Shown here piece by piece: positions 16,343-57,727 of a stretch of 64,000 nucleotides of DNA. The position numbers and the translations under genes were made by a program. Positions within the stretch are counted from its first letter, which is position 1, and each line of letters opens with the position of its first letter. Under the pieces are notes generated by a model. The model was not told the DNA's origin and made no database searches. It was given only the letters and a program-made list of their open reading frames with translations. The stretch comes from a virus (lineage: Duplodnaviria > Heunggongvirae > Uroviricota > Caudoviricetes), in IMG/VR virus record IMGVR_UViG_3300031521_000016, positions 35,895 to 99,894 of that record; one strand, given 5' to 3'.

Positions 16343-16588
16343 TTAGAATATTTTTATTAAAGATTTACGAGCTGATTCTATCATGACAATAGCATCATAC
16401 AGATCTTTGTCAGGATTCATCTCGTAAATTTTATTTGAATTGATAACTAGTTCCTCGCAGAACTTATTCAGTTGTTTCTTTAGCAGAGCACGATCTTCTG
16501 CCGATAATTTTTCTTTTTCTTCTGTTATAGAAACTGATTTCTTACTCCAGTTTGCACTCCACGTAATGTTGTTAGGGGTCTGTCTCAT
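16343..16588 (-). CDS. hypothetical protein
   Basis: Track ORF. Confidence 0.4.
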   Translation of the reverse strand: MRQTPNNITWSANWSKKSVSITEEKEKLSAEDRALLKKQLNKFCEELVINSNKIYEMNPDKDLYDAIVMIESARKSLIKIF

Positions 16589-17784
16589 TTTAAAAATTTA
16601 AAGTCGCAACGTCTATTTGGTCTATATTTAATTTTTGGATCGTTTAGTTTTCCTCTTCCGTCAGTCTGAATTCTTGATCCGTCGATTTTCCAGACTTTTA
16701 CCATTTCTTTCTTGGTACGTTCTACTCTTTCATCGCTTAACTTAAAATTGTATGGAATATCACCCATATAATCACAGTAACCGACTATTTGAAGTTTCAG
16801 CTTTGGATTATCTTGCATTTTCTTAGCTACTTTACAAATAGTAATCAATGCCCAATCATCTAACTCATATTTATCGAAGTCAAAATAGATGCTTGGAATT
16901 TCATTATCTGTTAAGTTAATAGTATCTACATTATGTTTTCCGTCTAGATTATTATTTCTATTCAGAATATAGGCTGATAATGAGTCGATCTTATTGTCTT
17001 GTGAAATATTTTTCTTTTTTAGTGATTTTATTTCTTTGTTTAGATCATTTATATCAGATTGTAGATTTCTATCTTTCTTCGGATACTTAACCGGTGAAAA
17101 TTTATACGATATGCCTAATGTCGCTAAACCAACTTTATCATTAGTTACTCCTTTGTATGTCCAGATACCTTCTAAATTATCTTTATTGAAACATATATAG
17201 CTCATTTTAGCTAGAATGTCGATATGTTTAGAATAATTATACTTTAAATATACAGAAATAGGTAATGTTACTGCTAATCCATATTTTTCTGTTACTGGGA
17301 AAGTAGGCATAATTCCGGGTGATGGAGACTTAATATGTAACATATCGTCTGCTGTAAGTCCCGGAGTCAAATCGTATGAGTAAAATGAATATCCTAATCC
17401 TACTGAACCATTTACTGTAAGTTTAGATAGTGAGTACGGTAAAATTAAATGCGTAATATCTATTGTAAGGTTTAAACCACCTGTCCAGATATCACTGCCT
17501 ATGTTTCGAGTAACCCCATTTAATCCGGTGTTAGCATTAATAGGTATATAATAACCGTTAGCACTTATTCCCCAAATATGATTAATCTTATATTCGAGAT
17601 TTAATCCGGCTGTTACTCCCCACACCGAACTTGGGAAAATATTCTTGAGAGACTGATTAATGTCTCCATCGAATCTGTTTAGACCAACTTCTGGTGTAAC
17701 AGACCACTTTGAGTAAGTGGGATAATTGTATGCATTACTATTCAATGACAGTAAACATACTAGAAATAGTATTAATTTTTTCAT
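16585..17784 (-). CDS. OmpA-family outer-membrane protein
   Basis: Signal peptide, a beta-rich N-terminal half, a coiled-coil linker, and a C-terminal OmpA peptidoglycan-binding domain (IYFDFDKYEL...LQIVGYCDYMGD...N..LSDERVE). Confidence 0.7.
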   Translation of the reverse strand: MKKLILFLVCLLSLNSNAYNYPTYSKWSVTPEVGLNRFDGDINQSLKNIFPSSVWGVTAGLNLEYKINHIWGISANGYYIPINANTGLNGVTRNIGSDIWTGGLNLTIDITHLILPYSLSKLTVNGSVGLGYSFYSYDLTPGLTADDMLHIKSPSPGIMPTFPVTEKYGLAVTLPISVYLKYNYSKHIDILAKMSYICFNKDNLEGIWTYKGVTNDKVGLATLGISYKFSPVKYPKKDRNLQSDINDLNKEIKSLKKKNISQDNKIDSLSAYILNRNNNLDGKHNVDTINLTDNEIPSIYFDFDKYELDDWALITICKVAKKMQDNPKLKLQIVGYCDYMGDIPYNFKLSDERVERTKKEMVKVWKIDGSRIQTDGRGKLNDPKIKYRPNRRCDFKFLK

Positions 17785-20103: not shown

Positions 20104-20940
20104 TTATTGCAAGTATACTGTCAATATATCGTCGAAGAACTCTTTGTTCTGTGTAAAGATCGGCGTTTCAACAGCTTCCCATTTATTTCGTCTTGCTCCA
20201 TTCTTTAGATACTCAACCTTTTTAATGATTGCTCCTCGCTTCCTGCGGTAATCATACTCATTCCAATTGATACCTTTTTCAAAGATCATATCTTGCATTA
20301 CATCTGTTTTCTTACCGTGTAGTTCTTTTGGGCTGTATAAGCTTTGAGCTACAGAAGAAATAGAATTGCGAGTGGCATCTTGCTGTCTCCAAATGAAATA
20401 ATTTATAACTTCCTGTCTAGCTGGAATAGTGAATACTCTAGCATCAAATTCAGCTAATTTTTTGAAGCATCCCATGATGTCATCATGTGTCTGAAAAACA
20501 AGATTTTCAAATTTTGACAGAGCACGTTTGATTCGCAATTCATTAAACTTATTAGTTGCCATAGAAGCTGATACACTTACAATCTTTTGGATATTATTAT
20601 CGTACCATGCATCGGTTGTTACATCATCGAAATCAGTAATTAATACTGAGATTTCATCAGATTGGACGTAAGCACATTTAGCACCTTGGATATTTTTACA
20701 CAGATATGCTGCAGTAAGATTCATATCTTCAATTAATCCATCATCAAATGGACGTTGCAACCCTTTCGTGTAAGTATGAAATGCTTTTCCATCGATTCTG
20801 ATTACTGCATATGTACGTCTGGGTAGATACATTCGAGTTCTGTTCTCGTAGAACTCTTTCATCCTGTTCCCTAAATCATCTTTTTTATTTTCCACGGTCG
20901 GTGTAATATTTAATGTATAATGCTTGTTGTCTGATGCCAA
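20104..20940 (-). CDS. Thg1-like tRNA 5'-guanylyltransferase (TLP)
   Basis: FYENRTRMYLPRRTYAVIRIDGKAFHTY...RPFDDGLIEDMN...CAYVQSDEISVLITDF matches the Thg1 catalytic core (RxDG, PFD, SDEIS). The start may be the internal M27. Confidence 0.75.
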   Translation of the reverse strand: MASDNKHYTLNITPTVENKKDDLGNRMKEFYENRTRMYLPRRTYAVIRIDGKAFHTYTKGLQRPFDDGLIEDMNLTAAYLCKNIQGAKCAYVQSDEISVLITDFDDVTTDAWYDNNIQKIVSVSASMATNKFNELRIKRALSKFENLVFQTHDDIMGCFKKLAEFDARVFTIPARQEVINYFIWRQQDATRNSISSVAQSLYSPKELHGKKTDVMQDMIFEKGINWNEYDYRRKRGAIIKKVEYLKNGARRNKWEAVETPIFTQNKEFFDDILTVYLQ

Positions 20941-22006: not shown

Positions 22007-23263
22007 TTAGTTGCTAATTTCTATAATATAGCGGATAGTAGCTTGCGATATATCGTAAATGATGTATTCATTGTTTCGTAAGTCTGCTCCACCCTCAGCG
22101 AATACAGAATCGAAACCATCAGCTGCAAGATTCTTTTTATTTAGCCCGTAATTAGAACGTGTTACATGTTTCTGATTTCCTACGTGAAAGTCAAATAATG
22201 CCAAGAAAGCAGTAGCAGCAGAACCTCTCGCCCAGTATGAACCGGATAATGATGTATAGCCGATAGACTTTTGTGCTTTATCAGCTCCATAGATACCGTC
22301 TCCGAACATAGAACCAGAATATACTGCTCCAGATGGTCTAATCAAAAGCCCTGTCTGTAAAATGTTAAGCCAGTTTTCATTTCTAGAACCATGCCAGAAT
22401 GTTTGTATCTTTTTATTTTTAGCTGAATCTACTTGTTTAATGAAGCGTTCTTCTGTTTGTATATTTTTTACACCGAATGCTCTAACGAATTGTTTAGCAT
22501 TTGGCCCCATAAGCGATTTGATTTTTTGAACTTCTGCATCTGTAATTTCTACCATTTCAAGACCAAGCATCTTTAATGTATCAACTTTTTCATCTGCATC
22601 ATCTTCTTCTCCACCATTTTCTGCAAGTTTTTGTTTCTTCAACATTTCAACTTGTCCTGCCATAGTATCTAAAAGTTTTTGTTCTTTGTCCATCATGTCG
22701 AACAGAGTTTTGTTTTTTGTATCTTTTAGATCGAAGTCTTTGGGTAAAAGATGATAACTTACATGCTTCATCTTTCTAGGTATAATCGAATACAGCTCTA
22801 AGAATAAGTTGTTGATATCATTAACCGTAAGAGTGGATAATCCGGCAGATATCGTATTAATGATGCCTTGTGCTGCATCAACTTGTTGTTGTGTAACGTC
22901 AGATTGAGAAATCGTGTAGTTTTCTTCTACCGTCTTTTTAGCAAAAGCTTGTAGTCTGTCGAAGAATAACTTAATCTTAGCATTAGCAATCTGAGTAATC
23001 GTTTTCTTCTTGCCGGTTTTAACATCAGTAGCAGTGGCTCCAATAGATTCGATGAATAGTGTGGTTACATCTTTATAACCTTTTTTCGTTTTCGCTCGAT
23101 ATGTCTTTTCCCATTCTCTAATCGGATAAGTTTTTTCAGCTGGTTTACCTCCTTGTACTCTACCATATACGACTGTGAATGTTCCATTTTCATTATCAGT
23201 CATATGATAAAATTTGTTGTTATTTTCACTGGTCACCATGACCAATTTTACTACTTTCCCCAT
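22007..23263 (-). CDS. PARP-like ADP-ribosyltransferase with N-terminal WGR domain
   Basis: WGR-like N-terminus (NNKFYHM...VVYGRVQGG...KGYKDV). Catalytic domain FWHGSRNENWLNILQTGL...GDGIYGADKAQKSIGY...NNEYIIYDISQATIRYIIE aligns with the PARP1 H-G-S / Y-Y / E triad. Confidence 0.8.
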   Translation of the reverse strand: MGKVVKLVMVTSENNNKFYHMTDNENGTFTVVYGRVQGGKPAEKTYPIREWEKTYRAKTKKGYKDVTTLFIESIGATATDVKTGKKKTITQIANAKIKLFFDRLQAFAKKTVEENYTISQSDVTQQQVDAAQGIINTISAGLSTLTVNDINNLFLELYSIIPRKMKHVSYHLLPKDFDLKDTKNKTLFDMMDKEQKLLDTMAGQVEMLKKQKLAENGGEEDDADEKVDTLKMLGLEMVEITDAEVQKIKSLMGPNAKQFVRAFGVKNIQTEERFIKQVDSAKNKKIQTFWHGSRNENWLNILQTGLLIRPSGAVYSGSMFGDGIYGADKAQKSIGYTSLSGSYWARGSAATAFLALFDFHVGNQKHVTRSNYGLNKKNLAADGFDSVFAEGGADLRNNEYIIYDISQATIRYIIEISN

Positions 23264-30025: not shown

Positions 30026-30958
30026 TTAAAATACTAGGGATGACTTTGTTTCCCATCTGAAATACAATTTTGCATTTTCTCTAAGAACCAGATACTTGTA
30101 CGTATCTTTTATTTCAGATGCCATGCAATCATCATCTACACATATAGACATTTCATCTATGTCATATAGATTTGCACCAAATGGTAAAATAGTCAATAAT
30201 CTGTATGAAGTTTTCACATACTCTACGATAGCATTATAGAAATGCTTACTCGCATTCTCATCTATCCATTTATCGATTTCTGAGTTCGATTCAGATTTAT
30301 AGAGTTTTCTGAATGTTACTTGATCAGCTCCTAGAAATTTACATCTGTCGATTATCGCTTTTGGACTATAGTTATCGAAGTCATTAACTAAATTTATAGA
30401 TAATCTGATATTGAAATCTAACTCTTTTGCAAGGGCAATTTTATCGAATACATTAAATTCAGTACTTTTGGCACATCCTATTAATTCTAAATTGCGTAAA
30501 TTATCAACTATGTTTGAAATTGAAAATGAAATAGTAGTAACTCCAATACGACGTAAATGCGTCAAATTTGATTTATCCAGTAATACACCGGTAGTTTGTA
30601 GTTCGATGCTTTTAAATGGTGAAGTCAATCTTGAATTGATCTCAGAGAAGAAATCTAAGAATTGTGGATTTTGAATAGGTTCACCTGTACCAGTTAATAC
30701 TACTGTGTTACAGCCGTTATCTCTAGCAAATTGCAATCGATTAAAATAATCTTTGTAATACTGAGAGTCTTTAGAAATTATTTTATCTAATGCATGTCTT
30801 CTGGCTAAAGATGTGTTAAACTCTTTAAAATTCGGTTTAATCAACGCAGATATAACGTCATTGTATGGATTAGTATGAGTTCTACTAACACAAAATTTAC
30901 AGTGATTTATACATTTGTTCTTCGTCGGAACAACGATACTAAGACTTTGGATATTCAT
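30026..30958 (-). CDS. radical SAM enzyme
   Basis: CINHCKFC (CX3CX2C) at residues 16-23 and a downstream GTGEP SAM-binding motif. Confidence 0.7.
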   Translation of the reverse strand: MNIQSLSIVVPTKNKCINHCKFCVSRTHTNPYNDVISALIKPNFKEFNTSLARRHALDKIISKDSQYYKDYFNRLQFARDNGCNTVVLTGTGEPIQNPQFLDFFSEINSRLTSPFKSIELQTTGVLLDKSNLTHLRRIGVTTISFSISNIVDNLRNLELIGCAKSTEFNVFDKIALAKELDFNIRLSINLVNDFDNYSPKAIIDRCKFLGADQVTFRKLYKSESNSEIDKWIDENASKHFYNAIVEYVKTSYRLLTILPFGANLYDIDEMSICVDDDCMASEIKDTYKYLVLRENAKLYFRWETKSSLVF

Positions 30959-31060: not shown

Positions 31061-32923
31061 TTATTCTTTAACGTCTGGTTTAGTCAATGGTTTTGTCGTT
31101 TCATCAGAGTTACGGACCATCTTTAAAACTTCCATACCTAATATACCATTTAATGCTCCATTTCCTCCTTCACCATTACCCGAAACAAGGACTTCAGGAA
31201 TAATTTTCACGTTGTTTATACCGATTTGTTCGATCACCTTAAACTTGGCGAAATTATCTTGACCCATAGAATCAACTTGCAATTTGTAAGATTCAGCAGT
31301 AGCTCTACCAATTGCTTCGATCTTGGTAGCTTCAGCCTTACCGGTAAGTTCAATTTGTGTTGCTTCAGCATCTGCATTAACCTTTTTAGCTTCAGCTTGA
31401 GCTCCAGCTTTAAGTTTAATTGCTTTTGCTTCACCTTCAGCTCTTTTTACTTCAGATTCTGCATTTCGTTGTGAAATTTCAACTTGTTGTTGAGCATTTA
31501 CAACTTCTCTTTGCATGTCTGCGATAGCTTCAGCAGATGCTAAAGTTTTTCTCATATCTTGAGCTTTTCTTTGTGTTTCAAATGTAACCTCTTGTTCCTG
31601 AGCAATTTTACGGTCAGTAAGAGTTTTCATAAGTTCGATAGGTGGAACAATATCACCGATTAGTGTATCAACGGCATGTACATTATATTCTTCTAATACT
31701 GCTGAGATTTTAGCTTTTGCGTCACCTTGTTTCTCTTGACGGTGGCCTAAGAATTCGATAACATCTGCATCTTGAGCAGAATTTCGGAAATAGTTACCGA
31801 TTGTTGGTTCAAGAACCTGTGATACCATGTTTTGCATAGATCCGAATCGGGCAATAACTTTAGGAGCTTCAGTAGATGGAACGTGAATGATCTGAGATAC
31901 ATCAAGGTTGAATGGGAAACCATCTTTTGAACGAACAGTAATAGTATTCAGATTCTTATCCAAGTTATGTGATTCTGTTCTTGCATTTGCCCAATTTAAT
32001 ACAAGATTTGTAGTAGGCACAACTTCAATCTTATGTGTATAAGGATTAATCGGATACTTACCTGGATTCAAAGTTTCAATCCATACACCCTTTTCACCTT
32101 TTTTCACGATGTTACCATGTTTGAAGTTTGCTCCGGTTACATCTTCACCTTCTTTTCCAACAAATGATATAACTACTCCAGCAGTACCAATTCCGATTTC
32201 AGTCATCGGTTTCTTTTCAATTTCCACTGCCCATGGGTTAAGTGAATATGTACCAGCCTGAATAACTTGCTCTTGCATACCTCTTTCTCCGCCATTTGCT
32301 AAGAATGTTTCAAAATCTTGGAAGTTATTATGACCATCGATAGTTGGACCAGCAATATTACCAGCACCTAATTGTACACCATCTAATGCAGTAACAATAC
32401 CTATCATTCCATCTTCTATAGATACAATATCAGTTTGGAATACATCGAACAATAAAGTATTAAGTCTGTATACACCAGTATTAAGATACCCAAGTTGTCT
32501 ACCACGTTTACCGCCATTGTTCAAGAATAGTCTGGCATTTTGAAAATTGTCAGAGTCTACACTACGAGCAAGCATAGTACCATCCGGTAATTTCTGTCCA
32601 TCTTTTGCGGAAATGATTCCTAATCTACCCTTTGGAATAACAGTAAGTGGTTCTTGCTTAATTTCATATTGCCAAATCCACTTAAACCAGTACAAACCTG
32701 GTGCTAATGTATCAGCTTGATAACCTGCTTCACCGTTTAATGCGATAATTTTACCGTCGGGTAACGATTTTTCTTTTCCGAATAGCACGAATTTTTTGAT
32801 GACAAGACCAATCTTATCTTCAGGAATAATAATCATCCCAAAGAATACTCTTAAGATGAACTTGTAAAATACAAGGGCTAGTACAACTACTGGCACCCAC
32901 CAATACGCTAATAATGCAATCAT
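31061..32923 (-). CDS. flotillin-like SPFH/band-7 protein
   Basis: N-terminal TM, SPFH-like core, and a C-terminal A/E/K-rich coiled-coil flotillin tail (AEAKKVNADAEATQIELTGKAEATKIEAIGRATAESY). Confidence 0.6.
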   Translation of the reverse strand: MIALLAYWWVPVVVLALVFYKFILRVFFGMIIIPEDKIGLVIKKFVLFGKEKSLPDGKIIALNGEAGYQADTLAPGLYWFKWIWQYEIKQEPLTVIPKGRLGIISAKDGQKLPDGTMLARSVDSDNFQNARLFLNNGGKRGRQLGYLNTGVYRLNTLLFDVFQTDIVSIEDGMIGIVTALDGVQLGAGNIAGPTIDGHNNFQDFETFLANGGERGMQEQVIQAGTYSLNPWAVEIEKKPMTEIGIGTAGVVISFVGKEGEDVTGANFKHGNIVKKGEKGVWIETLNPGKYPINPYTHKIEVVPTTNLVLNWANARTESHNLDKNLNTITVRSKDGFPFNLDVSQIIHVPSTEAPKVIARFGSMQNMVSQVLEPTIGNYFRNSAQDADVIEFLGHRQEKQGDAKAKISAVLEEYNVHAVDTLIGDIVPPIELMKTLTDRKIAQEQEVTFETQRKAQDMRKTLASAEAIADMQREVVNAQQQVEISQRNAESEVKRAEGEAKAIKLKAGAQAEAKKVNADAEATQIELTGKAEATKIEAIGRATAESYKLQVDSMGQDNFAKFKVIEQIGINNVKIIPEVLVSGNGEGGNGALNGILGMEVLKMVRNSDETTKPLTKPDVKE

Positions 32924-34545: not shown

Positions 34546-35031
34546 TTAAATTTTGACAGTGTTAATAGTTACAATTAATTCGGCAATCTTATCATCCAAT
34601 CTTTTCTTATTGTCTTCAATAGTACTTATAACAGCTCTACATTGCATTCTGTAATGTTCCAGACATTCATCTGCATTATCGAAACATGCAACGAACGGTG
34701 TCGGTTTAAATGAATTTCCACTTCTACCCCAAGCGTATAGTTGTTCGTTATATTCATAAATCTGCACAATAGATTTGCATCGTACACCCTTTTTAGTTAA
34801 TTTCACGAGAGCATTCTCTGAACCATAAAGTTGTTTAACAGAAGGTGATTCAGATTTTGGTACGAGTATACATTTTGTAGGAACAGTATGTCTATATGCT
34901 CCATTACTACATAGATCAAAATCAAAATGTAAATAATTGCATACAAAAATTTCTTTCCCTAAATAAGGTGAATTTTTTTGAGCTAGAATTTCTGAATCAA
35001 GTTTCATATTAATGTGAATGTGAGGTTTCAA
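34546..35031 (-). CDS. hypothetical protein
   Basis: Track ORF. Confidence 0.45.
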   Translation of the reverse strand: MKPHIHINMKLDSEILAQKNSPYLGKEIFVCNYLHFDFDLCSNGAYRHTVPTKCILVPKSESPSVKQLYGSENALVKLTKKGVRCKSIVQIYEYNEQLYAWGRSGNSFKPTPFVACFDNADECLEHYRMQCRAVISTIEDNKKRLDDKIAELIVTINTVKI

Positions 35032-35917
35032 TGTATATCATTTCTGCATTACTATATGCTGCGGTAATATCAGCTTTCATTTCAGAAATAATAGATTCTA
35101 CTTTATATACATGAATATCATCTTCTAAATCAAGTGACATAGCAAGAATAAATTTGTTATTGCCATTGTATTCAGATCGCATGTTATTTATATGCTTAAC
35201 ATCTGGATACGATTTAATGATCTGTTTTATATGCATTCTCATTTCCCTTGATATGCTTTCACCAATCATTAATTTTCTAAATTCGTTACTCAAAAAATAT
35301 GAGGATGATAATAAAAGTAATCCAACAGTGATCGATCCAATTGCATCAAATACGGGAGATATGCATATAGCTAATGTAGTAGAAAGTAGTACAATAACTA
35401 ATCCTGTAAGGGCAGCAAAATCTTCAATTATGATAACGAATATATTAGCATCAGTTGAATTTTTAAGATGATTTAGCCAACTAACTTTTCTATGCTTATC
35501 CATTTTGAATCGTTTGAATGCAACATAGAATGAATTTGCCTCAATGATGATCGATATAATTAGAACGATAAAAATCCACATCATATTTGAAAGGCCCTCT
35601 GGTTCTATTATCTTATGAATGCCTTCATATACTGAATATAAACCACCAACAAAGAATAGTAAAACTCCTACTAACAGTCCATAAAAATATTCCTCTTTGC
35701 CATAACCAAATGCATGTTGTTCATCAGGTTCTTTTTTAGAACGTTTAGAGCCCACGATTAAAAGAATTTGGTTTGCAGTGTCAGCAAAAGAGTGAATAGA
35801 TTCAGCGAACATTCCAGCACTTCCAGTAATGAATGATACTATCAACTTAATTGCACTTATTATGAGATTTCCTACTCCTGCTACAATTACTGCCTTTAAA
35901 CTTCCTTCTGTACTCAT
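35009..35917 (-). CDS. cation diffusion facilitator (CDF) family metal efflux transporter
   Basis: Six predicted TM helices, the CDF signature SIHSFADTANQ in TM2, and a C-terminal cytoplasmic domain. Confidence 0.75.
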   Translation of the reverse strand: MSTEGSLKAVIVAGVGNLIISAIKLIVSFITGSAGMFAESIHSFADTANQILLIVGSKRSKKEPDEQHAFGYGKEEYFYGLLVGVLLFFVGGLYSVYEGIHKIIEPEGLSNMMWIFIVLIISIIIEANSFYVAFKRFKMDKHRKVSWLNHLKNSTDANIFVIIIEDFAALTGLVIVLLSTTLAICISPVFDAIGSITVGLLLLSSSYFLSNEFRKLMIGESISREMRMHIKQIIKSYPDVKHINNMRSEYNGNNKFILAMSLDLEDDIHVYKVESIISEMKADITAAYSNAEMIYIETSHSH

Positions 35918-36420
35918 TCAGCCTCCATTATTCGTTCAAGATATTCCCATGCTTTTAATACGTCGATCGGATGTTCTGTGCATTGAATAGCATTTCTGAA
36001 TTCTGCATATTCATTTTTGTACATTAAGAACTTATCTTTGTTGTATTCTTTACTTTGAATAGTATTTGCAATTCTATCACATATTTTGACAGCTGTTGCT
36101 TTCCAGTTTCCACGAATTTTAGGATAAGTCTTGGCATGTTTTTCTGTCCGGTTTCTTCCTAATTCATCAGTTACACAGAATACTATTTCTGCGATATTTT
36201 TACCGAATGCTTTCTTAATATCATTGAACGATAAATGAGTATCTTCCAATACATCATGTAAAATACATCCAATAACAATTTCTTCATCAAATCCCAAAAT
36301 CTCAGCGATTTCAGCTACACGCTTTACATGATATGCATATGGGTAGATATCGTAAGTCTGGCCTTTATGAACCAACTCAGCTACCATCAAAGCTCTATCC
36401 TTTTTTGTTATCGTTATCAT
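35914..36420 (-). CDS. HD-domain small alarmone hydrolase (SpoT/Mesh1-like (p)ppGpp hydrolase)
   Basis: H...HDVLEDT...FG..IAEIVFCVTDE matches the RelA/SpoT HD hydrolase motifs; 168 aa, single domain. Confidence 0.7.
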   Translation of the reverse strand: MITITKKDRALMVAELVHKGQTYDIYPYAYHVKRVAEIAEILGFDEEIVIGCILHDVLEDTHLSFNDIKKAFGKNIAEIVFCVTDELGRNRTEKHAKTYPKIRGNWKATAVKICDRIANTIQSKEYNKDKFLMYKNEYAEFRNAIQCTEHPIDVLKAWEYLERIMEAE

Positions 36421-36579: not shown

Positions 36580-36888
36580 TTATTCAATTTTCCTTATGAT
36601 TTTTCCACTTTCAAGTGGTTCTACCGCCCCATCAGTGGATTGTGTAGTACTGGCAATTTTTACAAGTGTTATTGTCGTGACGTAATGATTATCTTGAAGT
36701 TTTTCTGCGAATACTTTAGCAGTACACTTTAAACGTACTTCTTTTGCATTAGACATCCATAAAGTTATATACGGTTCTTGTTTTTCATCTGCATTTTGTT
36801 GAATGAGACATATTTTGTCTGCTGGTATAATTACAGGATTGCCGTACCAGTCATTAACTACGATAAAATTTTGTTCTACACTACTCAT
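36580..36888 (-). CDS. hypothetical protein
   Basis: Track ORF. Confidence 0.45.
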   Translation of the reverse strand: MSSVEQNFIVVNDWYGNPVIIPADKICLIQQNADEKQEPYITLWMSNAKEVRLKCTAKVFAEKLQDNHYVTTITLVKIASTTQSTDGAVEPLESGKIIRKIE

Positions 36889-37130: not shown

Positions 37131-37895
37131 TTATTTTTTATTTGTTGGTTCTAACCAAGTTCCATCTCTAAATATTAGATCAAGAAAGCCCGGAATATAT
37201 GTTGATTCTACTAAATTCAACAGTTTTAAAGTTTTGACTGTATCATGTTTCATCATCTTCTTAACTTCTTCTCTTATACGTTCATTACTCACAGTCTTTC
37301 CAAGTTTTTCGAGGATAGCAGGTTGCTTCATAGCTTCCCAAATATCTACGTGGATATCGAAGTTTTTTGTGATAGAAAAACGCATAGCTCGCAAGATACG
37401 TAATGGATCGTCCATCATAGTAATCTTTGGATCGATAGGGGTAATCAAAATACGATTACTTAATGCAAGCTTGCCATTGAATAAGTCGATAATTTTGCCC
37501 TCTTCATCTTCTGCCATTGCATTGACAGTAAAATCTCTTCGTTCTAAGTCATCAGCTAAAGTACCCAGTGCTAAGATAGGAGTTCTTGTATCGGGTATGT
37601 AACCGAGCTCTTTTCGTGCTAATACAAAATCAGCAACTAATCCGTCATAAATATGACCATGTGGAAATTTAGCGCGAATAGTAAACATTTCTGGAGTAGA
37701 AAGAAAGATACTATATTTGCGTTCTTTCATCCATTCATACATGACGTTGAAACCTTCAGTGACAGTTAATTCACTGCATAAGCCAGGAACTATACGTTCT
37801 TGTTCATTTAGTACAAAAGTGAAATCGACATCTTTGTTTTCGATACCTAATAGAGCATCTCTTACTACTCCTCCTACTTTATAAATTTTTGGCAT
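37131..37895 (-). CDS. class-II tRNA nucleotidyltransferase head/neck domain (minimal CCA- or A-adding enzyme / poly(A) polymerase family)
   Basis: GGVVRDALLG...DVDF, ERRDFTVNAMA and DDPLRILRAMRF are the canonical PolyA_pol head-domain motifs; only 254 aa. Confidence 0.8.
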   Translation of the reverse strand: MPKIYKVGGVVRDALLGIENKDVDFTFVLNEQERIVPGLCSELTVTEGFNVMYEWMKERKYSIFLSTPEMFTIRAKFPHGHIYDGLVADFVLARKELGYIPDTRTPILALGTLADDLERRDFTVNAMAEDEEGKIIDLFNGKLALSNRILITPIDPKITMMDDPLRILRAMRFSITKNFDIHVDIWEAMKQPAILEKLGKTVSNERIREEVKKMMKHDTVKTLKLLNLVESTYIPGFLDLIFRDGTWLEPTNKK

Positions 37896-40489: not shown

Positions 40490-40927
40490 TTACACTAATT
40501 TTGAAAAATCTTTTAGCTCATTTCTAACTTTCATCAGGATTTTACCAAGCATATTTTTACCTACACCTTCGCATACTCCCCAATATTTATCTCCCCACCA
40601 ATTACCTTCAATAAGCATTGCATCACCGGTAGCAATTAATTTCTTTGTAAGTTCGGCACTTTGTGAAAATTTAGCCATTACGACTTCTTCCATAATGCTA
40701 TCTTTAACTAAATCCCAATCGGAACGTAGATTTACAGATCTGCCAAGTTTTTTACTCTCGCTTGGATTAAGCGATACGAATGATTCTCTAGCAACTGAAT
40801 CATTCGTTTTCATAGAATGAAATGCGCCTTCTGAGTTGGCATACGTTCTTCCGTCATAAGTAACTGGTGATTCCCAGAAGTTACTGAGGAATGCGTATTC
40901 CCCTTTGAAAAAGTCAATAGTTTTCAT
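40490..40927 (-). CDS. NADAR (YbiA-like) ADP-ribosyl hydrolase domain protein
   Basis: FLSNFW, E at SEGAFHSMK, MEEVVMAKFSQ...LTKKLIATGDAMLIEGNWWGDKYWG and NMLGKILMKVR match the NADAR signature. Confidence 0.75.
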   Translation of the reverse strand: MKTIDFFKGEYAFLSNFWESPVTYDGRTYANSEGAFHSMKTNDSVARESFVSLNPSESKKLGRSVNLRSDWDLVKDSIMEEVVMAKFSQSAELTKKLIATGDAMLIEGNWWGDKYWGVCEGVGKNMLGKILMKVRNELKDFSKLV

Positions 40928-42394: not shown

Positions 42395-43588
42395 TTATCT
42401 TGATGCACTAGGCCTGGGAATCCTTCCCTTTTCTACTTCAGGTCTATTACTTATTCTACTTTTTTTGACATGCCTAATTTGATCATTACAATTTTTCCAT
42501 CTCATGGATATGAGTAAATTGTTGATATAGTCACGATCTGGAGATTCTTGCATGTCGGATTTGTCAAATGCTTCATTTACTTGTTTCATCAAGTCTTCAG
42601 CTTCATTAACTAAATCTTCATATTCATATTCTCCTTTTCTGATAGCTAACAATTTATCTCTATTTGTGCGTCTTACATTTATTCCTTTGCCTTGCGCAAT
42701 CTCTAATGACATTTCAAGCAAACGTAAAGTATGTGCTAAATTTTTACCGTCATATCCTTTTCCGTGCAACATGTTATCATTGAAACGGTGAACATTCCTT
42801 TTGGCAACCCATTCCCAGTATTCTTTATATTCTTTGCAGTATACAGAATAACCTTCCATGTTAAATTGCATTAAGAAATCTGGTTTTATACCACTTGGAA
42901 TATTACTAAGACTTACATCCATCGCAGTTTCTTCGTCTGAAACAATACCTCTATAGTAATCAGATATGAGAATGCCTTGTTCTCTAGCAAGAAATTGATT
43001 ACGATTATAGTATACACCGTATGTGTTTTTCATATGAGGTAGTGCAACTAATCCACAACAATCTTGTACCATGTCGTTCATTCGTAAGTACTCTTTAACG
43101 TTAATAGAGCCTTGCTTCCATTGAACGAAACAGAATTCTAAAATGCTTTTGCGTTTTTCATCGAACTGTTTAACAATCTTTTTGTTCAATCCTCTAGCTT
43201 TCTTTATTTGTTGAGTAGCATACCCACCAAATGAATTTTTACAGAGCTTAGAGATAAATTTATCTCTATTTTCGAGGATCATATCGAATATTGGTGCTTT
43301 ATAAATTACACAATCTTCAGGTGTATTCAAAAGCTCTATGATATTAGGATTGTTAGTGTATATTAATTCCAAAAATTTTCCTAATTCGTAGAATGTGATA
43401 TCGTTCATTTCATCAGATACTTGATCGTCATATTCTAATCCAAGAATTTTATCGATAGGTTGCATGAATACACCACGTATGTCTGTATCAGAAGTTTCTG
43501 TTGCAGTACCATATGCGTGTGAACCAGCGATAACTTCATAAATTATCAGTCCATTATCTCGTAAATCTTGTAAAGTTAATTTCTTCAT
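42395..43588 (-). CDS. Pol-beta-superfamily nucleotidyltransferase (RlaP/PF10127-like; CD-NTase/OAS-like not excluded)
   Basis: GSHAYGTATETSDTDIRGV is the G[S]-x9-DxD nucleotidyltransferase motif followed by RGV, as in RNA-repair-associated predicted nucleotidyltransferases; 397 aa. Confidence 0.6.
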   Translation of the reverse strand: MKKLTLQDLRDNGLIIYEVIAGSHAYGTATETSDTDIRGVFMQPIDKILGLEYDDQVSDEMNDITFYELGKFLELIYTNNPNIIELLNTPEDCVIYKAPIFDMILENRDKFISKLCKNSFGGYATQQIKKARGLNKKIVKQFDEKRKSILEFCFVQWKQGSINVKEYLRMNDMVQDCCGLVALPHMKNTYGVYYNRNQFLAREQGILISDYYRGIVSDEETAMDVSLSNIPSGIKPDFLMQFNMEGYSVYCKEYKEYWEWVAKRNVHRFNDNMLHGKGYDGKNLAHTLRLLEMSLEIAQGKGINVRRTNRDKLLAIRKGEYEYEDLVNEAEDLMKQVNEAFDKSDMQESPDRDYINNLLISMRWKNCNDQIRHVKKSRISNRPEVEKGRIPRPSASR

Positions 43589-54928: not shown

Positions 54929-55246
54929 TTATGTTATTTTAATCCAGCCTTCTCCGCCTGGACCACATTCATTTTCTATAGTTATCTTTATCAGTTTTTG
55001 ATTCTCATAACCTCCAGCTCTTATAGCTATTGGCATAAATTCTTTTTCTAACATCTCTTCATCGAAGGGATGACTATCTCCTAAGCATACAAATACATGA
55101 TTCTCTTTCTCGTTAAGATATACATCACCGTATTCACCATTGCAAAGAATTGCAATGGCATACGCATAATGTTGAAGTTTAGCAAAATCGATAGGTCCCG
55201 GATATTTAACGTCTTCGTTAAATTCTTTGTATTTCTTTATTCTCAT
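54929..55246 (-). CDS. hypothetical protein
   Basis: Track ORF. Confidence 0.45.
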   Translation of the reverse strand: MRIKKYKEFNEDVKYPGPIDFAKLQHYAYAIAILCNGEYGDVYLNEKENHVFVCLGDSHPFDEEMLEKEFMPIAIRAGGYENQKLIKITIENECGPGGEGWIKIT

Positions 55247-56964
55247 TAGATTGCAGGTTTTGTTTCTTCAGCAGCAGGTTCAGGAGTACTTTCTGGTTCA
55301 GGAGTAGTTGCTGGTTCAGGAGTAGATGATGATCCAGAACCTGAGCTATCACTAGATGGTTCAGATGATGATGAACTTCCTCCAGCTGGAGCTGATGGAG
55401 CAGTATAACTTAGTCCTCCTGCGGACGCAGTATTTTCACCACCATTTTCTTCTTCATCTTCTTTAATCATACGTTCATTCATAGCTAATACGTCCTTATC
55501 CATGTGTAAATATTGTTGAACTAAGAATCTCATAGAGAAGAATGGTTTGCCTTCTGCCTTTTGAAGCTGTGACATAGAACCGATAAATTCTAGACGCTTA
55601 GTCATAATCTCTTGTTCTCTGATTTCTTCGAACATGTTATCTTTAACGAAACGCAATCCTAATGATGACTTAAACAGCTCATCATCTTCAAGATGATTAT
55701 ATTTAAGACACATTTGAATCCAGAGTGGTTTCAACAATATTTCTTGGAATGCTGAACGAATTCTGCTTACAAATTTACCGAAACGTACTTCTTCACGGTC
55801 TACACCAGTAGCAGCCGAACCAGACATTTGTCCACCAGAATTGGCTTTATCGAAACGAGCAAAAGGAATTTTTGAATCTTCTTTAAGCTTATTCATCCAA
55901 TACATCAATAGTGTACTATTTTGTAAGTCTGGACCATCACCACCCATAGTGGATATATCTATTTGTTCACCGTTCTTAGAAGGGAATAAGTAATTCTTGT
56001 AGAATTGACCTACAGAAGGTGATCCGTTGATTCTTAATTGGCCATCGTTAGAATCCAAGATTATGTCTTCTTTATAGATCGCCATTAATTCAGCTAAGGT
56101 TTCTTTTGCTTTCTGAGGAGATTTCGATCCAATTGGAACAATCATTTTTACTCTCCAAGTAGCATTCATCATAGTCCACATAACCATTGCATTCTCGATC
56201 ATTCTTAGAAGATTGAAAGAACGTACCAGATTTTCAACGTATGATATTCTTGAAGGTAAATTGCCTTTAGCATAAGAGATGTATACAACTTGTGTATCAT
56301 ATAGCATTCTTGTCATAGCAGGTCTATCAGGGTAAAGGTACCATACCTTTTTCATTATTCCGTTTTCCTGTAAGACATCAGGCTTCAGAAATGCGGCATC
56401 TAATTCTTTAAACCCTAGTACATTTTCACCTTTTGCATCAAATACAATTTCAAATGCTAGTACTCCATCTACTAAAAATTGACGGAAATATTGCCAACCT
56501 GTGATATCAGCTCCAAATCCATGTCTATTATAGATTCGTTTATATTCATCACTTATGGCATCTCTTATTTCCTCACTTATATCTAAGTTTGCCACAGAAG
56601 GATAAGCAAAATAGTTAGTTTCATCATATACAATACCTTCATCAGCAAGTGTGGTCATCATGAAATCGATTTCACCATTTAAAGCAAATTTTCTCAGATA
56701 ATCTCTTCGTGATGGGTAATCTTTATCGAAAATAGCTGTGTACTTTTTCTGTGAAACATCAGCTAATGCAAATGCATAAGCTAAATCTTTTGGAGCATAT
56801 TCTCCCAGTGTAGCTTCAGTAGGTCCGATAGCTCTTGAATTTCGTATGACTAGATCATCATACTTCATCCCTAAACTAGATATCTTTCGGATACCATCAC
56901 CTACACTGACAAGTGATTTAACTCCAAAACGATCAAAAAATCCGCTTTCAAATAATTTAGACAT
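55246..56964 (-). CDS. portal protein (T4 gp20-like)
   Basis: FGKFVSRIRSAFQEILLKPLWIQMCLK, ENAMVMWTMMNATWRVKMIVPIG and the following helical segment align with T4 gp20 ([50 protein letters not shown]). C-terminal S/P/E-rich tail. Confidence 0.65.
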   Translation of the reverse strand: MSKLFESGFFDRFGVKSLVSVGDGIRKISSLGMKYDDLVIRNSRAIGPTEATLGEYAPKDLAYAFALADVSQKKYTAIFDKDYPSRRDYLRKFALNGEIDFMMTTLADEGIVYDETNYFAYPSVANLDISEEIRDAISDEYKRIYNRHGFGADITGWQYFRQFLVDGVLAFEIVFDAKGENVLGFKELDAAFLKPDVLQENGIMKKVWYLYPDRPAMTRMLYDTQVVYISYAKGNLPSRISYVENLVRSFNLLRMIENAMVMWTMMNATWRVKMIVPIGSKSPQKAKETLAELMAIYKEDIILDSNDGQLRINGSPSVGQFYKNYLFPSKNGEQIDISTMGGDGPDLQNSTLLMYWMNKLKEDSKIPFARFDKANSGGQMSGSAATGVDREEVRFGKFVSRIRSAFQEILLKPLWIQMCLKYNHLEDDELFKSSLGLRFVKDNMFEEIREQEIMTKRLEFIGSMSQLQKAEGKPFFSMRFLVQQYLHMDKDVLAMNERMIKEDEEENGGENTASAGGLSYTAPSAPAGGSSSSSEPSSDSSGSGSSSTPEPATTPEPESTPEPAAEETKPAI

Positions 56965-57727
56965 TATTAGTATTTATTTTTCTCCCTGGATACAATATCA
57001 TCTCTTGTATTTTTATTTTGTATGAAAATGGTGTAAGAAAATAAGTGTTCATACCATCATTATACCAACGCTTAGATATAGCTGCATTTGACATATTTGA
57101 TATTGCTATATTTGAATATAGGTTAGATTTTAATGTAGGTTTAATTCTTTTCTTATATGGTTTACTTTTCTTCAGAATGGGATTTTTATACTTCCATATA
57201 AATCCCATAGAATATTCTCGTTCTCCTCTGCAGCAATCTGTTACATGTCCGATACCTAATGTTCTCTGTATTTCTTTAGCTGAAGGCCATTCTTTTATAA
57301 AAACTCCATCTAGATCATATTGCAATACAACCTTACTTCTATTAGAATTTAGATTGTTTATTAATCTTTCACGATGAATATATGAATAAGCTTCTCTTGC
57401 TTCAGCATATCCTTTGCTAGAATATTTAGATGGTCGTTGTTTAAAGTTTTTTCCTGTGAATAGACTTGTGAATGCATTAAATGCATAAGCTGATGCTCTA
57501 TTTCTATATATTCTCCATAGTAACCAATGTGCAATAAAATGTTCTCTAGCTGTCAAAAATACTAGATTTGTATCTTCATCGCCACCTCCCATAGATTTCA
57601 TAATAATATGATGACGTTCATAATATACACCATATTCTTTTACTCTATCTCTACGAGTTTCTATCAAGCTATGATAATGCCAAATATAATTCATTTTATA
57701 TATCGTCCTCGTCAAAGAATAAGTCAT
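56957..57727 (-). CDS. HNH homing endonuclease
   Basis: ERHHIIMKSMGGGDEDTNLVFLTAREHFIAH HNH motif. Confidence 0.7.
   Translation of the reverse strand: MTYSLTRTIYKMNYIWHYHSLIETRRDRVKEYGVYYERHHIIMKSMGGGDEDTNLVFLTAREHFIAHWLLWRIYRNRASAYAFNAFTSLFTGKNFKQRPSKYSSKGYAEAREAYSYIHRERLINNLNSNRSKVVLQYDLDGVFIKEWPSAKEIQRTLGIGHVTDCCRGEREYSMGFIWKYKNPILKKSKPYKKRIKPTLKSNLYSNIAISNMSNAAISKRWYNDGMNTYFLTPFSYKIKIQEMILYPGRKINTNNV

What the first reader, a model, noticed from the sequence alone, without database searches (positions are those of the whole stretch)
37131..37895. Minimal class-II CCA/A-adding enzyme (head+neck only, 254 aa)
The protein has all head-domain motifs (GGxVRD...DxD, RRDFTxNA, DPLRxLRAxRF) but lacks the body and tail domains. 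This recalls the minimal A-adding or CC-adding enzymes. It would repair tRNA 3' ends, or could polyadenylate RNAs.
Basis: partly seen in the sequence, partly recalled or inferred. Interest (0 to 1): 0.55.

Follow-up and report, generated by a model that had tools for sequence, protein, structure and literature searches.

The report
Short phage tRNA CCA-adding enzyme
This is a real gene in a T4-like phage for a half-size version of the enzyme that builds or repairs the CCA tail of tRNAs; it belongs to a large, already catalogued, virus-only family whose stripped-down form has apparently never been tested in the lab.

Summary
The ORF at 37131-37895 (minus strand, 254 aa) is a class II nucleotidyltransferase with head and neck domains only. 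All catalytic and nucleotide-templating motifs are intact, and there is no body or tail domain.

It is not a truncation artefact. It matches PHROG 24229 ("tRNA nucleotidyltransferase", profile length 245) from end to end. At least 563 viral contigs carry homologs, whose ORFs are 241-270 aa long and share a conserved C-terminus. Cellular genomes hold only long forms.

The gene is not new as an annotation: Cellulophaga phage phi4:1 gp032 is 47.5% identical and already named. I found no biochemical study of the short form.

Context points to tRNA as the substrate:
- Relatives sit beside phage tRNA arrays, Rnl1 ligase, a kinase/phosphatase pair, SmpB and Thg1.
- The window itself carries Thg1-like, RlaP and kinase genes, but no tRNA genes.

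An unexpected extra finding concerns the phage tRNA genes next to short-form genes. They almost always encode C74 (135/138) but rarely C75-A76. The pattern repeats in phi4:1 (23/23).

The best reading is a stand-alone catalytic core that completes or repairs tRNA 3' ends. How it binds tRNA is unknown: the protein is acidic and no partner was identified.

Interest is moderate. It is a new member of a known kind.

The parts
37131..37895 (-). ORF of 254 aa: a class II (Pol beta superfamily) tRNA nucleotidyltransferase with head and neck domains and a short C-terminal cap; member of PHROG 24229
37824..37874 (-). Motif A (aa 8-24, GGVVRDALLGIENKDVD) with the two metal-binding carboxylates D22 and D24
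   Evidence: Sequence; invariant in short and long forms; D22 in 119/121 and D24 in 117/121 family representatives
37767..37793 (-). Insertion of 9 aa (aa 35-43, IVPGLCSEL) found only in this phage's protein among the 38 aligned homologs; this is the lowest-confidence interior stretch of the model
   Evidence: Alignment; mean pLDDT of block 31-40 is 65
37608..37634 (-). Strand carrying the third catalytic carboxylate D89, followed by the basic/acidic R94-K95-E96 element (aa 88-96, ADFVLARKE)
   Evidence: D89 in 121/121 and R94 in 116/121; aligns with D99 of T. maritima CCA (RIDIATAR; residue role from PMC3925840)
37578..37607 (-). [quoted passage not shown]
   Evidence: Aligns with T. maritima CCA loop residues 107-115 (loop definition); the R94-to-D116 region is 21 residues in 103/121 representatives
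37518..37550 (-). Motif B (aa 116-126, DLERRDFTVNA)
   Evidence: R120, D121 and N125 in 121/121; invariant
37458..37490 (-). Motif C (aa 136-146, IDLFNGKLALS); D137 and G141 are conserved, and position 144 is Ala here where 101/121 relatives have Asp
37377..37412 (-). Motif D in the neck (aa 162-173, DDPLRILRAMRF); D163 and R166 correspond to the protein template that reads CTP and ATP in class II enzymes
   Evidence: D163, R166 and R172 in 121/121; role of the Asp/Arg pair from PMC3925840 and of EDxxR from PMC6468291
37254..37292 (-). Motif E (aa 202-214, VSNERIREEVKKM)
   Evidence: R206 in 119/121 and E210 in 121/121
37134..37205 (-). Family-specific C-terminal cap (aa 231-254, YIPGFLDLIFRDGTWLEPTNKK) that replaces the body and tail domains; conserved motif F....WL.PT
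   Evidence: helix at 237-245 followed by a lower-confidence coil. The capping role is inferred.
20104..20940 (-). Context, not adjacent: Thg1-like 3'-5' nucleotidyltransferase (tRNA 5'-end repair)
   Evidence: Pfam PF04446 E=2.6e-28; PHROG 4717 E=6.6e-87
42395..43588 (-). Context, not adjacent: RlaP (RNA ligase-associated Pol beta) nucleotidyltransferase
   Evidence: Pfam PF10127 E=5.5e-23; PHROG 388
5572..5976 (-). Context, distant: AAA_33 P-loop kinase, homolog of the kinase that sits in the Rnl1 / phosphoesterase cluster beside the short enzyme in relatives
   Evidence: tblastn 42% identity, E=2e-32 to L006:13028-13435; Pfam AAA_33 on the identical gene in L148

Best explanation
The gene encodes an active, stand-alone catalytic core of a class II tRNA nucleotidyltransferase. 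D22, D24 and D89 bind the two metal ions, motif B (RRD) handles the ribose and triphosphate, and D163/R166 in the neck form the protein template that selects CTP and then ATP. The full-length flexible loop allows the switch to ATP. The enzyme most likely adds the missing C75-A76, or a whole CCA, to tRNA 3' ends during infection. In relatives this would mature phage-encoded tRNAs that lack a genomic CCA. In this phage, where no tRNA gene was found in ~84 kb, it would repair host tRNAs whose tails have been trimmed or cut. It probably works alongside the phage's other tRNA/RNA repair enzymes (Thg1-like, RlaP, kinase). What is shown: the architecture, intact motifs, purifying selection, restriction to viruses, and co-location with tRNA and repair genes. 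What is inferred: the substrate, the nucleotides added, and how tRNA is held without body and tail domains.
For: - Family membership and fold are established.
- Every catalytic and templating residue is kept in 96-100% of 121 representatives that are at most about 50% identical to each other. The loop region is 21 residues in 103/121, and the proteins end 38-59 residues after motif E.
- The family is large: 6409 hits, 137 representative clusters at E<1e-30, and at least 563 viral contigs. ORFs are 241-270 aa.
- It is virus-specific. In 185,579 species genomes the best match is 46% identical, on a contig binned into a Synechococcales MAG; its ORF was measured at 310 aa (the upstream-most start was taken, so this is an upper bound). 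All other hits are at most 40% identical, and the ORFs overall are 310-796 aa.
- Context within 10 kb of the homologs, out of 80 loci: tRNA genes in 31 (13 have one within 1.4 kb), Rnl1 ligase in 17, phosphoesterase in 20, P-loop kinase in 23, SmpB in 8 and Thg1 in 5. In Arthrobacter phage Talia1610 the homolog follows an RNA ligase and a polynucleotide kinase.
- tRNA genes are more often nearby than for long-form phage enzymes: 31/80 against 6/47 loci, Fisher p=0.002.
- Neighbouring phage tRNA genes need tail completion. Only 8/138 encode CCA, against 25/46 near long forms. In cultured phage phi4:1 only 1/23 does.
- The window itself has Thg1-like, RlaP and kinase genes.
- The literature already places phage CCA-adding enzymes in RNA-repair toolkits (PMC7824862). 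Tail-cutting defences exist, for example Cas12a3 (PMC12851939).
Against: - No activity data exist for any short-form member; nine literature searches found none.
[quoted passage not shown] These domains are missing here.
- Nothing obvious compensates for them. The family is acidic (median pI 5.6, net charge -4), whereas the C-terminal halves of long forms are basic (pI 8.6).
- No body or tail is encoded separately in the window (tblastn E>=0.7).
- The commonest neighbour, phrog_14949, does not resemble a body/tail module (hhalign probability 0.7%).
- This phage shows no tRNA gene in the 64 kb window plus 10 kb on each side.
- Its immediate neighbours are small ORFs of unknown function.
- Gene neighbourhood in relatives is correlative, and the 80 loci are phylogenetically related to one another.
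Confidence: 0.6

Rival explanations
1. It works only as one subunit of a complex. A separate phage or host protein would supply the tRNA-binding surface that body and tail give in the four-domain enzymes, making this a split CCA-adding or repair enzyme. This is a refinement of the best explanation and not an exclusive alternative to it.
For: The protein is acidic and lacks any RNA-anchoring domain. It is embedded in operon-like strings of small unknown ORFs, and its start overlaps the upstream 76-aa ORF by 17 nt. An uncharacterised 215-aa protein (phrog_14949) lies within 10 kb in 33/80 loci, often directly downstream, and this phage has a copy.
Against: No neighbour is conserved across the family. 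The window's flanking 76-, 82-, 102- and 125-aa ORFs have no homolog in any of the 80 loci. phrog_14949 is absent from more than half of the loci, lies about 47 kb away in this phage, and shows no similarity to long-form C-terminal halves or to any solved structure by sequence.
Confidence: 0.2
2. It is a promiscuous RNA 3'-tailing enzyme, either a poly(A)- or poly(C)-like polymerase or a general 3'-end healer, acting on mRNAs or RNA fragments and not specifically on tRNA. It could mark host RNA for decay or prepare broken ends for ligation.
For: The domains that restrict class II enzymes to tRNA are missing. From my own knowledge, not verified here: Betat et al. 2004 showed with E. coli CCA/PAP chimeras that the C-terminal part decides between CCA and poly(A) synthesis. 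JGI names many members 'poly(A) polymerase'. E. coli PAP is among the structural matches. The gene co-locates with Rnl1 and kinase/phosphatase healing-and-sealing genes.
Against: The family co-locates with tRNA arrays that lack C75-A76 and with the tRNA-specific Thg1 and SmpB. The flexible loop and the (E/D)DxxR template are strictly conserved, as expected for ordered C-then-A addition. The TIGR01942 pcnB score is 75.7 against a cut-off of 305.65. The JGI names are generic COG labels.
Confidence: 0.13
3. It is a host-shut-off or toxin-like enzyme that disables host tRNAs by adding extra nucleotides to intact CCA ends, in the manner of the MenT toxins.
For: MenT-type nucleotidyltransferases block aminoacylation by extending tRNA acceptor ends (PMC11541572, PMC10435456). 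A distant nucleotidyltransferase-like protein of Klebsiella phage fHe-Kpn01 (Gp22) is toxic in bacteria (PMC7291057). An enzyme without a tRNA 'ruler' might not stop at A76.
Against: MenT and Gp22 belong to different families, and no such protein appears among the sequence or fold matches. A phage that brings its own tRNA array lacking CCA, as the relatives do, would be harmed by such an activity. The neighbouring genes are for repair, not toxicity.
Confidence: 0.04
4. It is a decaying remnant of a full-length gene, or an assembly or frameshift artefact, with no function.
For: It is about 60% of the length of canonical enzymes.
Against: The same protein (99% identical or more) recurs on 26 independent contigs. 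Length and C-terminus are conserved in 80/80 viral loci. Catalytic residues are 96-100% conserved across distant clusters. The downstream ORF is unrelated to the body or tail domain.
Confidence: 0.02

Closest known systems
Class II CCA-adding enzymes (for example Bacillus stearothermophilus 1MIV, Thermotoga maritima 3H37, Planococcus 6QY6, Arabidopsis 9KMA, E. coli Cca)
   Same: The head and neck fold are the same (Foldseek E 1e-12 to 2e-15, TMq 0.63-0.70). Also shared are motifs A to E, the third carboxylate, the flexible loop and the (E/D)DxxR nucleotide template.
   Different: [quoted passage not shown] It ends in a family-specific cap of about 25 aa. It is acidic overall. It scores 111 against a cut-off of 290 on the best NCBIfam CCA equivalog. 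The family is found only in viruses.
PHROG 24229 / Cellulophaga phage phi4:1 gp032 and Arthrobacter phage Talia1610 gp185 (annotated 'tRNA nucleotidyltransferase', 244-250 aa)
   Same: The architecture and length are the same. The protein matches the profile end to end (E=8.9e-61) and is 47.5% and 35.8% identical to the two phage proteins.
   Different: This protein has a 9-aa insertion after motif A and Ala instead of Asp at motif C position 144. The local gene neighbourhood also differs: phi4:1 has a PARP-domain gene directly downstream, whereas here the PARP-domain gene is 14 kb away.
Long-form phage CCA-adding enzymes (PHROG 2244; Salmonella phage GEC_vB_MG gp170, Mycobacterium phage Myrna gp28, Sinorhizobium phage phiM7 gp269; 397-417 aa)
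   Same: These are phage-encoded and share a homologous head and neck (30-32% identity). The presumed role is also the same.
   Different: They keep a C-terminal half: an E. coli-like HD-type domain in the GEC_vB_MG and phiM7 proteins, not characterised here for Myrna gp28. They are less often next to tRNA genes (6/47 against 31/80 loci), and the tRNA genes near them mostly encode CCA (25/46 against 8/138).
Split CC-adding and A-adding enzymes (Aquifex aeolicus 3WFO and 1VFG/4WC2; S. pombe Cca1 and Cca2, 9NS2 and 9NS4)
   Same: The catalytic core is homologous. S. pombe Cca2 and Cca1 are the best sequence matches in the PDB.
   Different: Those enzymes divide the reaction between two full four-domain proteins (390-525 aa), not by truncation. 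CC-adding enzymes have a shortened loop (PMC3925840), whereas this one has the full loop.
Bacterial poly(A) polymerase I (PcnB; 3AQK/3AQL/3AQM)
   Same: It shares the class II head and neck fold (TMq 0.59-0.62).
   Different: PcnB has body and C-terminal RNA-binding regions. The TIGR01942 score here is 75.7 against a cut-off of 305.65, and the genomic context here centres on tRNA.

Membership tests
Class II nucleotidyltransferases (Pol beta superfamily, Pfam PF01743 head domain) | Head domain with GG...DxD and a third carboxylate on the beta sheet | tested here: met
   PF01743 scores 62.1 bits against a cut-off of 23. G8, G9, D22, D24 and D89 are present and 96-100% conserved in the family.
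Class II nucleotidyltransferases (Pol beta superfamily, Pfam PF01743 head domain) | Helical neck carrying the (E/D)DxxR nucleobase template, plus motif B RRD | tested here: met
   D162-D163-P-L-R166 and R119-R120-D121 are present. D163, R166, R120 and D121 occur in 121/121 representatives. The predicted fold matches only class II enzymes.
Canonical four-domain CCA-adding enzyme (NCBIfam equivalogs NF009814, TIGR02692, NF008137 and others) | [quoted passage not shown] | tested here: not met
   Alignments stop at about profile position 221/245. TMt is 0.33-0.49. There is no C-terminal half and none is encoded elsewhere in the window.
Canonical four-domain CCA-adding enzyme (NCBIfam equivalogs NF009814, TIGR02692, NF008137 and others) | Score above the curated equivalog cut-off | tested here: not met
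   The best score is 111 bits against a cut-off of 290 (NF009814). The others are 47.8-95.7 bits against cut-offs of 438-1440.
Canonical four-domain CCA-adding enzyme (NCBIfam equivalogs NF009814, TIGR02692, NF008137 and others) | Ordered addition of C74, C75 and A76 to tRNA | not testable with these tools
   This needs an enzyme assay. Only indirect support is available from context.
A-competent class II enzymes (CCA-adding or A-adding) as opposed to CC-adding | Full-length flexible loop between the third carboxylate and motif B | tested here: met
   aa 97-106 align with T. maritima CCA loop residues 107-115 with no deletion. The region is 21 residues long in 103/121 representatives. The criterion is taken from PMC3925840.
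A-adding enzymes (NF041569; Aquifex AaL type) | C-terminal region that blocks CC addition and measures the tRNA helix | tested here: not met
   No C-terminal region is present. NF041569 scores 47.8 bits against a cut-off of 1440.
Bacterial poly(A) polymerase PcnB | Score above the TIGR01942 or NF008634 cut-off, and a C-terminal RNA-binding region | tested here: not met
   The scores are 75.7 against 305.65 and 40.7 against 702. The C-terminal region is absent.
PHROG 24229 short phage tRNA nucleotidyltransferases | End-to-end match to the 245-position profile | tested here: met
   E=8.9e-61; protein residues 3-253 match profile positions 5-244 of 245.
PHROG 24229 short phage tRNA nucleotidyltransferases | Length of about 245 aa with the conserved C-terminal F....WL.PT cap | tested here: met
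   The protein is 254 aa, of which 9 aa are an insertion. Homolog ORFs are 241-270 aa. The cap is conserved.
PHROG 24229 short phage tRNA nucleotidyltransferases | Encoded by a virus | tested here: met
   The window has a T4-type portal and gp15. At least 563 IMG/VR contigs carry homologs. Cellular genomes hold only long forms.

The most novel reading that the evidence does not exclude
The short form is a distinct viral solution and not simply a smaller CCA-adding enzyme. On this reading, a free-standing catalytic core works without the tRNA-anchoring 'ruler', and it has co-evolved with phage tRNA genes that hard-code C74 but not C75-A76. C74 would act as a processing stop or priming mark, and the enzyme would be a dedicated 'CA-completing' or tail-repair module. 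Natural sequences in their thousands would then define the minimal unit able to do ordered, template-free C-then-A addition, and would show that length control does not need the body and tail domains.
Probability: 0.25. Interest if true: 0.65.

Novelty: new member of a known kind. Interest (0 to 1): 0.45.

Why it matters
How class II CCA-adding enzymes count to three and stop has been explained partly by the body and tail domains, which anchor the tRNA (PMC3925840). A natural, abundant, strongly conserved family that has only the head and neck offers a direct test of what the catalytic core can do alone. It would also be a compact reagent for tRNA 3'-end engineering.

For phage biology, the gene adds a piece to the tRNA repair and supply toolkits that large phages carry against tRNA-targeting host defences. 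The near-universal C74-only ending of the neighbouring phage tRNA genes suggests a processing rule that has not been described, as far as I could find.

The gene itself is an ordinary, already annotated kind of phage gene. The value lies in the uncharacterised family, not in this single instance.

Tried and rejected
1. Near-identical DNA in GenBank phages: none found, so the phage is uncultured.
2. tRNA or tmRNA genes in the window, in about 10 kb beyond each end, and Rfam families in the window: none found.
3. A body or tail encoded in trans: tblastn of the C-terminal halves of four long forms against the window gave only noise, E>=0.7.
4. phrog_14949, the 215-aa frequent neighbour, as a split-off body/tail. 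The hhalign probability against long-form C-terminal halves was 0.7%. It has no Pfam family and no PDB sequence match. The test was made against E. coli-type (HD) C-terminal halves only, and no structure was predicted.
5. A conserved small partner ORF: the window's flanking 76-, 82-, 102- and 125-aa ORFs have no homolog in the 80 related loci.
6. The strain-variable 200-aa gene of L003-L005 as a phrog_14949 homolog: no.
7. Fusion proteins among distant relatives (GNAT, topoisomerase I, ankyrin, L5 gp82 domains): these look like giant-virus or merged gene calls and gave no functional lead.
8. Electrostatic compensation for the lost domains: not found.
9. The neighbouring HD_4 protein as a detached equivalent of the E. 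coli Cca HD domain: there was no tblastn match to the E. coli C-terminal half, and it lies within 10 kb in only 7/80 loci.
10. Nine literature searches for a characterised short or phage enzyme: none found. One search was wasted on the phrase 'head and neck'.
11. BFVD fold search: the strong matches are long-form (330-586 aa) viral homologs, and no short-form structure is represented.
Full report
**The observation**

Positions 37131-37895 hold a 254-aa ORF on the minus strand, running from ATG to TAA. The window has 32-36% G+C and genes packed almost entirely on the minus strand. It encodes a T4-type portal (Gp20) and the gp15 tail-sheath stabiliser. It is therefore part of a T4-like myovirus genome. 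No near-identical DNA exists among GenBank phages.

It matches the Pfam PolyA_pol head domain (E=8.5e-17, aa 5-150) and, weakly, the neck-region model PF12627 (aa 178-226). The coordinates, the ORF and the motifs are all confirmed.

**Architecture**

Four independent lines show that the protein consists of head and neck only.

[quoted passage not shown] Every alignment stops near profile position 221 of 245, which corresponds to about residue 260 of proteins 390-580 aa long.
- A confident AlphaFold2 model (pLDDT 90.1, pTM 0.82) matches only those same enzymes. The TM-score is 0.55-0.70 when normalised by the query but 0.33-0.49 when normalised by the target, so the model covers about half of each target.
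- Aligned with E. coli Cca (412 aa) and three phage long forms (397-417 aa), the protein ends where their C-terminal halves begin.
- NCBIfam equivalog models for CCA-adding enzymes, the A-adding enzyme and PcnB match only aa ~100-237 and score far below their cut-offs. The best is 111 bits against 290.

After the long neck helix (aa 204-233) comes a short helix and a conserved tail, IPGFLDLVF..G.WL.PT. I interpret this tail as a cap over the surface that the body domain covers in long forms. That is an inference.

**Not an artefact, and not alone**

- The protein matches PHROG 24229 ("tRNA nucleotidyltransferase", profile length 245) from end to end with E=8.9e-61.
- A search of 5.8 billion proteins gave 6409 hits. 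The top 120 are 235-268 aa long and 60-70% identical (apart from one 99%-identical copy), and 115 of them are 244-250 aa.
- At the level of 50%-identity representatives, 137 clusters score E<1e-30, and nearly all of the best 150 are 225-265 aa.
- IMG/VR holds at least 563 viral contigs with a relative, on contigs up to 434 kb. In the best 80, the ORF is 241-270 aa.
- Across 121 representatives the catalytic and templating residues are almost invariant: D22 in 119, D24 in 117, and D89, R120, D121, N125, D137, G141, D163, R166, R172 and E210 in all 121.
- Among one genome for each of 185,579 bacterial and archaeal species, the best match is 46% identical, on a contig binned into a cyanobacterial MAG. 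All others are at most 40% identical, and the ORFs overall measure 310-796 aa.

The short form is thus a stable family under selection, and essentially confined to viruses. Other phages carry ordinary long forms.

**Already annotated**

Cellulophaga phage phi4:1 gp032 (244 aa, 47.5% identical) has been labelled tRNA nucleotidyltransferase in its GenBank record. So has Arthrobacter phage Talia1610 gp185 (250 aa). Comparative papers list CCA-adding enzymes among the RNA-repair and translation genes of large phages (PMC7824862; PMC7162821).

None of the nine literature searches found a paper that notes the truncated architecture or reports an activity for it. The library does not hold most subscription-journal papers, so this absence is not proof.

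**What the sequence says about chemistry**

In class II enzymes three carboxylates in the head bind the metal ions. An Asp/Arg pair in the neck reads CTP and ATP by Watson-Crick-like contacts. [quoted passage not shown]

All of these elements are present here. The loop (aa 97-106) aligns residue for residue with the T. maritima loop 107-115 and has a constant length across the family. This argues for an enzyme able to add A, and probably C followed by A, and against a CC-only enzyme.

Two local oddities appear to be tolerated variants:

- a 9-aa insertion after motif A that is unique among the 38 aligned proteins;
- Ala at motif C position 144, where 101/121 relatives have Asp, 10 have Ala and 9 have His.

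**Context**

The immediate neighbours here are small ORFs with no family match. Three genes downstream lie an HD_4 phosphohydrolase and a cation-efflux transporter. Further away, the window holds a Thg1-like enzyme (20104-20940), RlaP (42395-43588), an AAA_33 kinase (5572-5976), and PARP, SIR2 and NADAR genes.

In relatives the association with tRNA metabolism is much tighter:

- One clade has SmpB and Thg1 directly downstream.
- Another has five tRNA genes just upstream, with an Rnl1 ligase, a phosphoesterase and a kinase downstream.

Counts of features found within 10 kb of the short-form gene, over the 80 viral loci:

| Feature within 10 kb | Loci (of 80) |
|---|---|
| tRNA genes | 31 (13 have one within 1.4 kb) |
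| Rnl1 ligase | 17 |
| Phosphoesterase | 20 |
| P-loop kinase | 23 |
| SmpB | 8 |
| Thg1 | 5 |
| phrog_14949 (unknown function) | 33 |

Near long-form phage enzymes, tRNA genes are rarer: 6/47 loci, Fisher p=0.002. These loci are related to each other, so the counts are not independent events.

**An unexpected pattern in the neighbouring tRNA genes**

I examined 138 distinct tRNA genes in the short-form loci.

- Position 74 is C in 135, against a background C frequency of 14% (binomial p about 1e-109).
- Position 75 is C in only 12, which is no more than expected by chance.
- The downstream consensus is C-A-A.
- Only 8 encode a full CCA.

Near long-form enzymes, 25/46 encode CCA and 11/46 have a C74-only ending (Fisher p=1e-18). 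The pattern repeats in the cultured phage phi4:1, where 23/23 tRNA genes have C74 and 1/23 has CCA.

The method does not force this result. Loci such as L120 give tails without C74. C74-only tails also occur sporadically elsewhere, for example in a Patescibacteria MAG. I have no phylogenetically corrected census.

These tRNAs must receive at least C75 and A76 enzymatically. One possible reason, from my own knowledge and not tested here, is that a 3'-terminal C slows exonucleases such as RNase T or alters RNase Z cleavage. Trimming would then halt at N73-C74 and leave a primer for "CA" completion.

**How it most likely works, and what is doubtful**

The best-supported reading (confidence about 0.6) is an active catalytic core that completes or repairs tRNA 3' ends. 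In relatives it would act on phage tRNAs. In this phage it would act on host tRNAs, because no tRNA gene was found in about 84 kb.

The main weakness is substrate binding.

[quoted passage not shown] Nematode enzymes that cope with armless tRNAs do so by gaining basic residues (PMC12013499).
- The short family instead is acidic (median pI 5.6), while the C-terminal halves of long forms are basic (pI 8.6).
- No body or tail is encoded separately in the window.
- The frequent neighbour phrog_14949 does not resemble one.
- No small flanking ORF is conserved across the family.

The enzyme may therefore be distributive and of low affinity, may dimerise, or may need a partner that was not identified here.

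The rivals are a promiscuous 3'-tailing enzyme (0.13), a tRNA-disabling shut-off enzyme (0.04) and a dead remnant (0.02, refuted by conservation). A partner-dependent enzyme (0.2) is a refinement of the best reading and overlaps with it, so the confidences are not meant to sum to one.

**Verdict**

[quoted passage not shown] The gene itself is ordinary. The family, and the C74-only tRNA genes that travel with it, would repay a bench test. phi4:1 and its Cellulophaga host provide a cultured system for that.

Noticed in passing
L016-L095 (viral loci with short-form homologs); L237:37196-40926 and L238:43233-43305 (phi4:1 tRNA genes): Phage tRNA genes next to short-form enzyme genes encode C at position 74 in 135/138 cases, but C75 in only 12 and a full CCA in only 8. 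The downstream consensus is CAA. phi4:1 shows the same pattern (23/23 C74, 1/23 CCA). Near long-form phage enzymes, 25/46 tRNA genes encode CCA.
   Followed up: partly
L006:11514-12161; L148:16185-16607 (same phage as the window, about 10 kb beyond its low end): An uncharacterised 215-aa protein (phrog_14949) is the most frequent neighbour of the short enzyme (33/80 loci, often directly downstream, typically between Rnl1 and a phosphoesterase). It has no Pfam family, no PDB sequence match, and no similarity to CCA-enzyme C-terminal halves.
   Followed up: partly
window 20104-20940 (-), 42395-43588 (-), 5572-5976 (-): The window carries a dispersed tRNA/RNA repair set: a Thg1-like 3'-5' polymerase, an RlaP nucleotidyltransferase and an AAA_33 P-loop kinase. 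No RNA ligase was found in the window. A metallophosphoesterase lies just beyond its low end (L148:13547-14179).
   Followed up: partly
window 22007-23263 (-), 13398-14084 (-), 40490-40927 (-): There is a set of NAD+/ADP-ribose genes: a PARP catalytic-domain protein (418 aa), a SIR2-family protein and a NADAR domain protein. In phi4:1 a PARP-domain gene (gp031) lies directly downstream of the short enzyme gene.
   Followed up: no
window 35009-35917 (-) and 35914-36420 (-): A full-length cation-diffusion-facilitator efflux transporter (Cation_efflux plus ZT_dimer) overlaps by 4 nt the end of an HD_4 (RelA/SpoT-type HD) phosphohydrolase gene. This is an unusual pair of auxiliary genes for a phage, and it is conserved in sister contigs (L004, L005, L155).
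   Followed up: no
window about 36881-36888, compared with L003:11001-11603, L004:2265-2867 and L005:1060-1662: This is a strain-level insertion/deletion. Sister contigs with the 99%-identical enzyme carry an extra 200-aa gene between the 82-aa and 102-aa ORFs downstream of it. The window and contigs L154 and L155 lack that gene. It has no significant family match.
   Followed up: partly
window 37767-37793 (aa 35-43) and about 37464-37466 (aa 144): The window protein has a 9-aa insertion (IVPGLCSEL) that none of the 37 aligned homologs has. It also has Ala at motif C position 144, where 101/121 relatives have Asp.
   Followed up: partly
window 7715-9340 (-) and 9355-10920 (-): Adjacent genes encode a DUF2201 putative metallopeptidase with a VWA-like domain and an AAA/MoxR-like ATPase. 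This resembles a MoxR-VWA chaperone-type pair inside a phage genome.
   Followed up: no
window 56957-57727 (-), beside the portal gene at 55246-56964: A 256-aa ORF with a weak NUMOD1 motif overlaps the start of the T4-type portal gene. It may be a homing-endonuclease-like insertion. A gene with a Tn7 TnsA-like N-terminal domain lies at L151:14342-14845, which maps within the window's high end.
   Followed up: no
window 30026-30958 (-), 31061-32923 (-), 16585-17784 (-), 1819-2649 (-): Other auxiliary genes include a radical SAM protein, a 620-aa SPFH/Band 7 protein, an OmpA-domain protein and a PfkB-family kinase. phi4:1 also carries Band 7 and OmpA-like genes, which hints at distantly shared gene content.
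   Followed up: no
P0230, P0243, P0259, P0180, P0234 (distant homologs): A few relatives have the head and neck module embedded in much larger proteins, together with GNAT, eukaryotic-type topoisomerase I, ankyrin or phage L5 gp82 domains. These may come from giant viruses or may be merged gene calls.
   Followed up: partly
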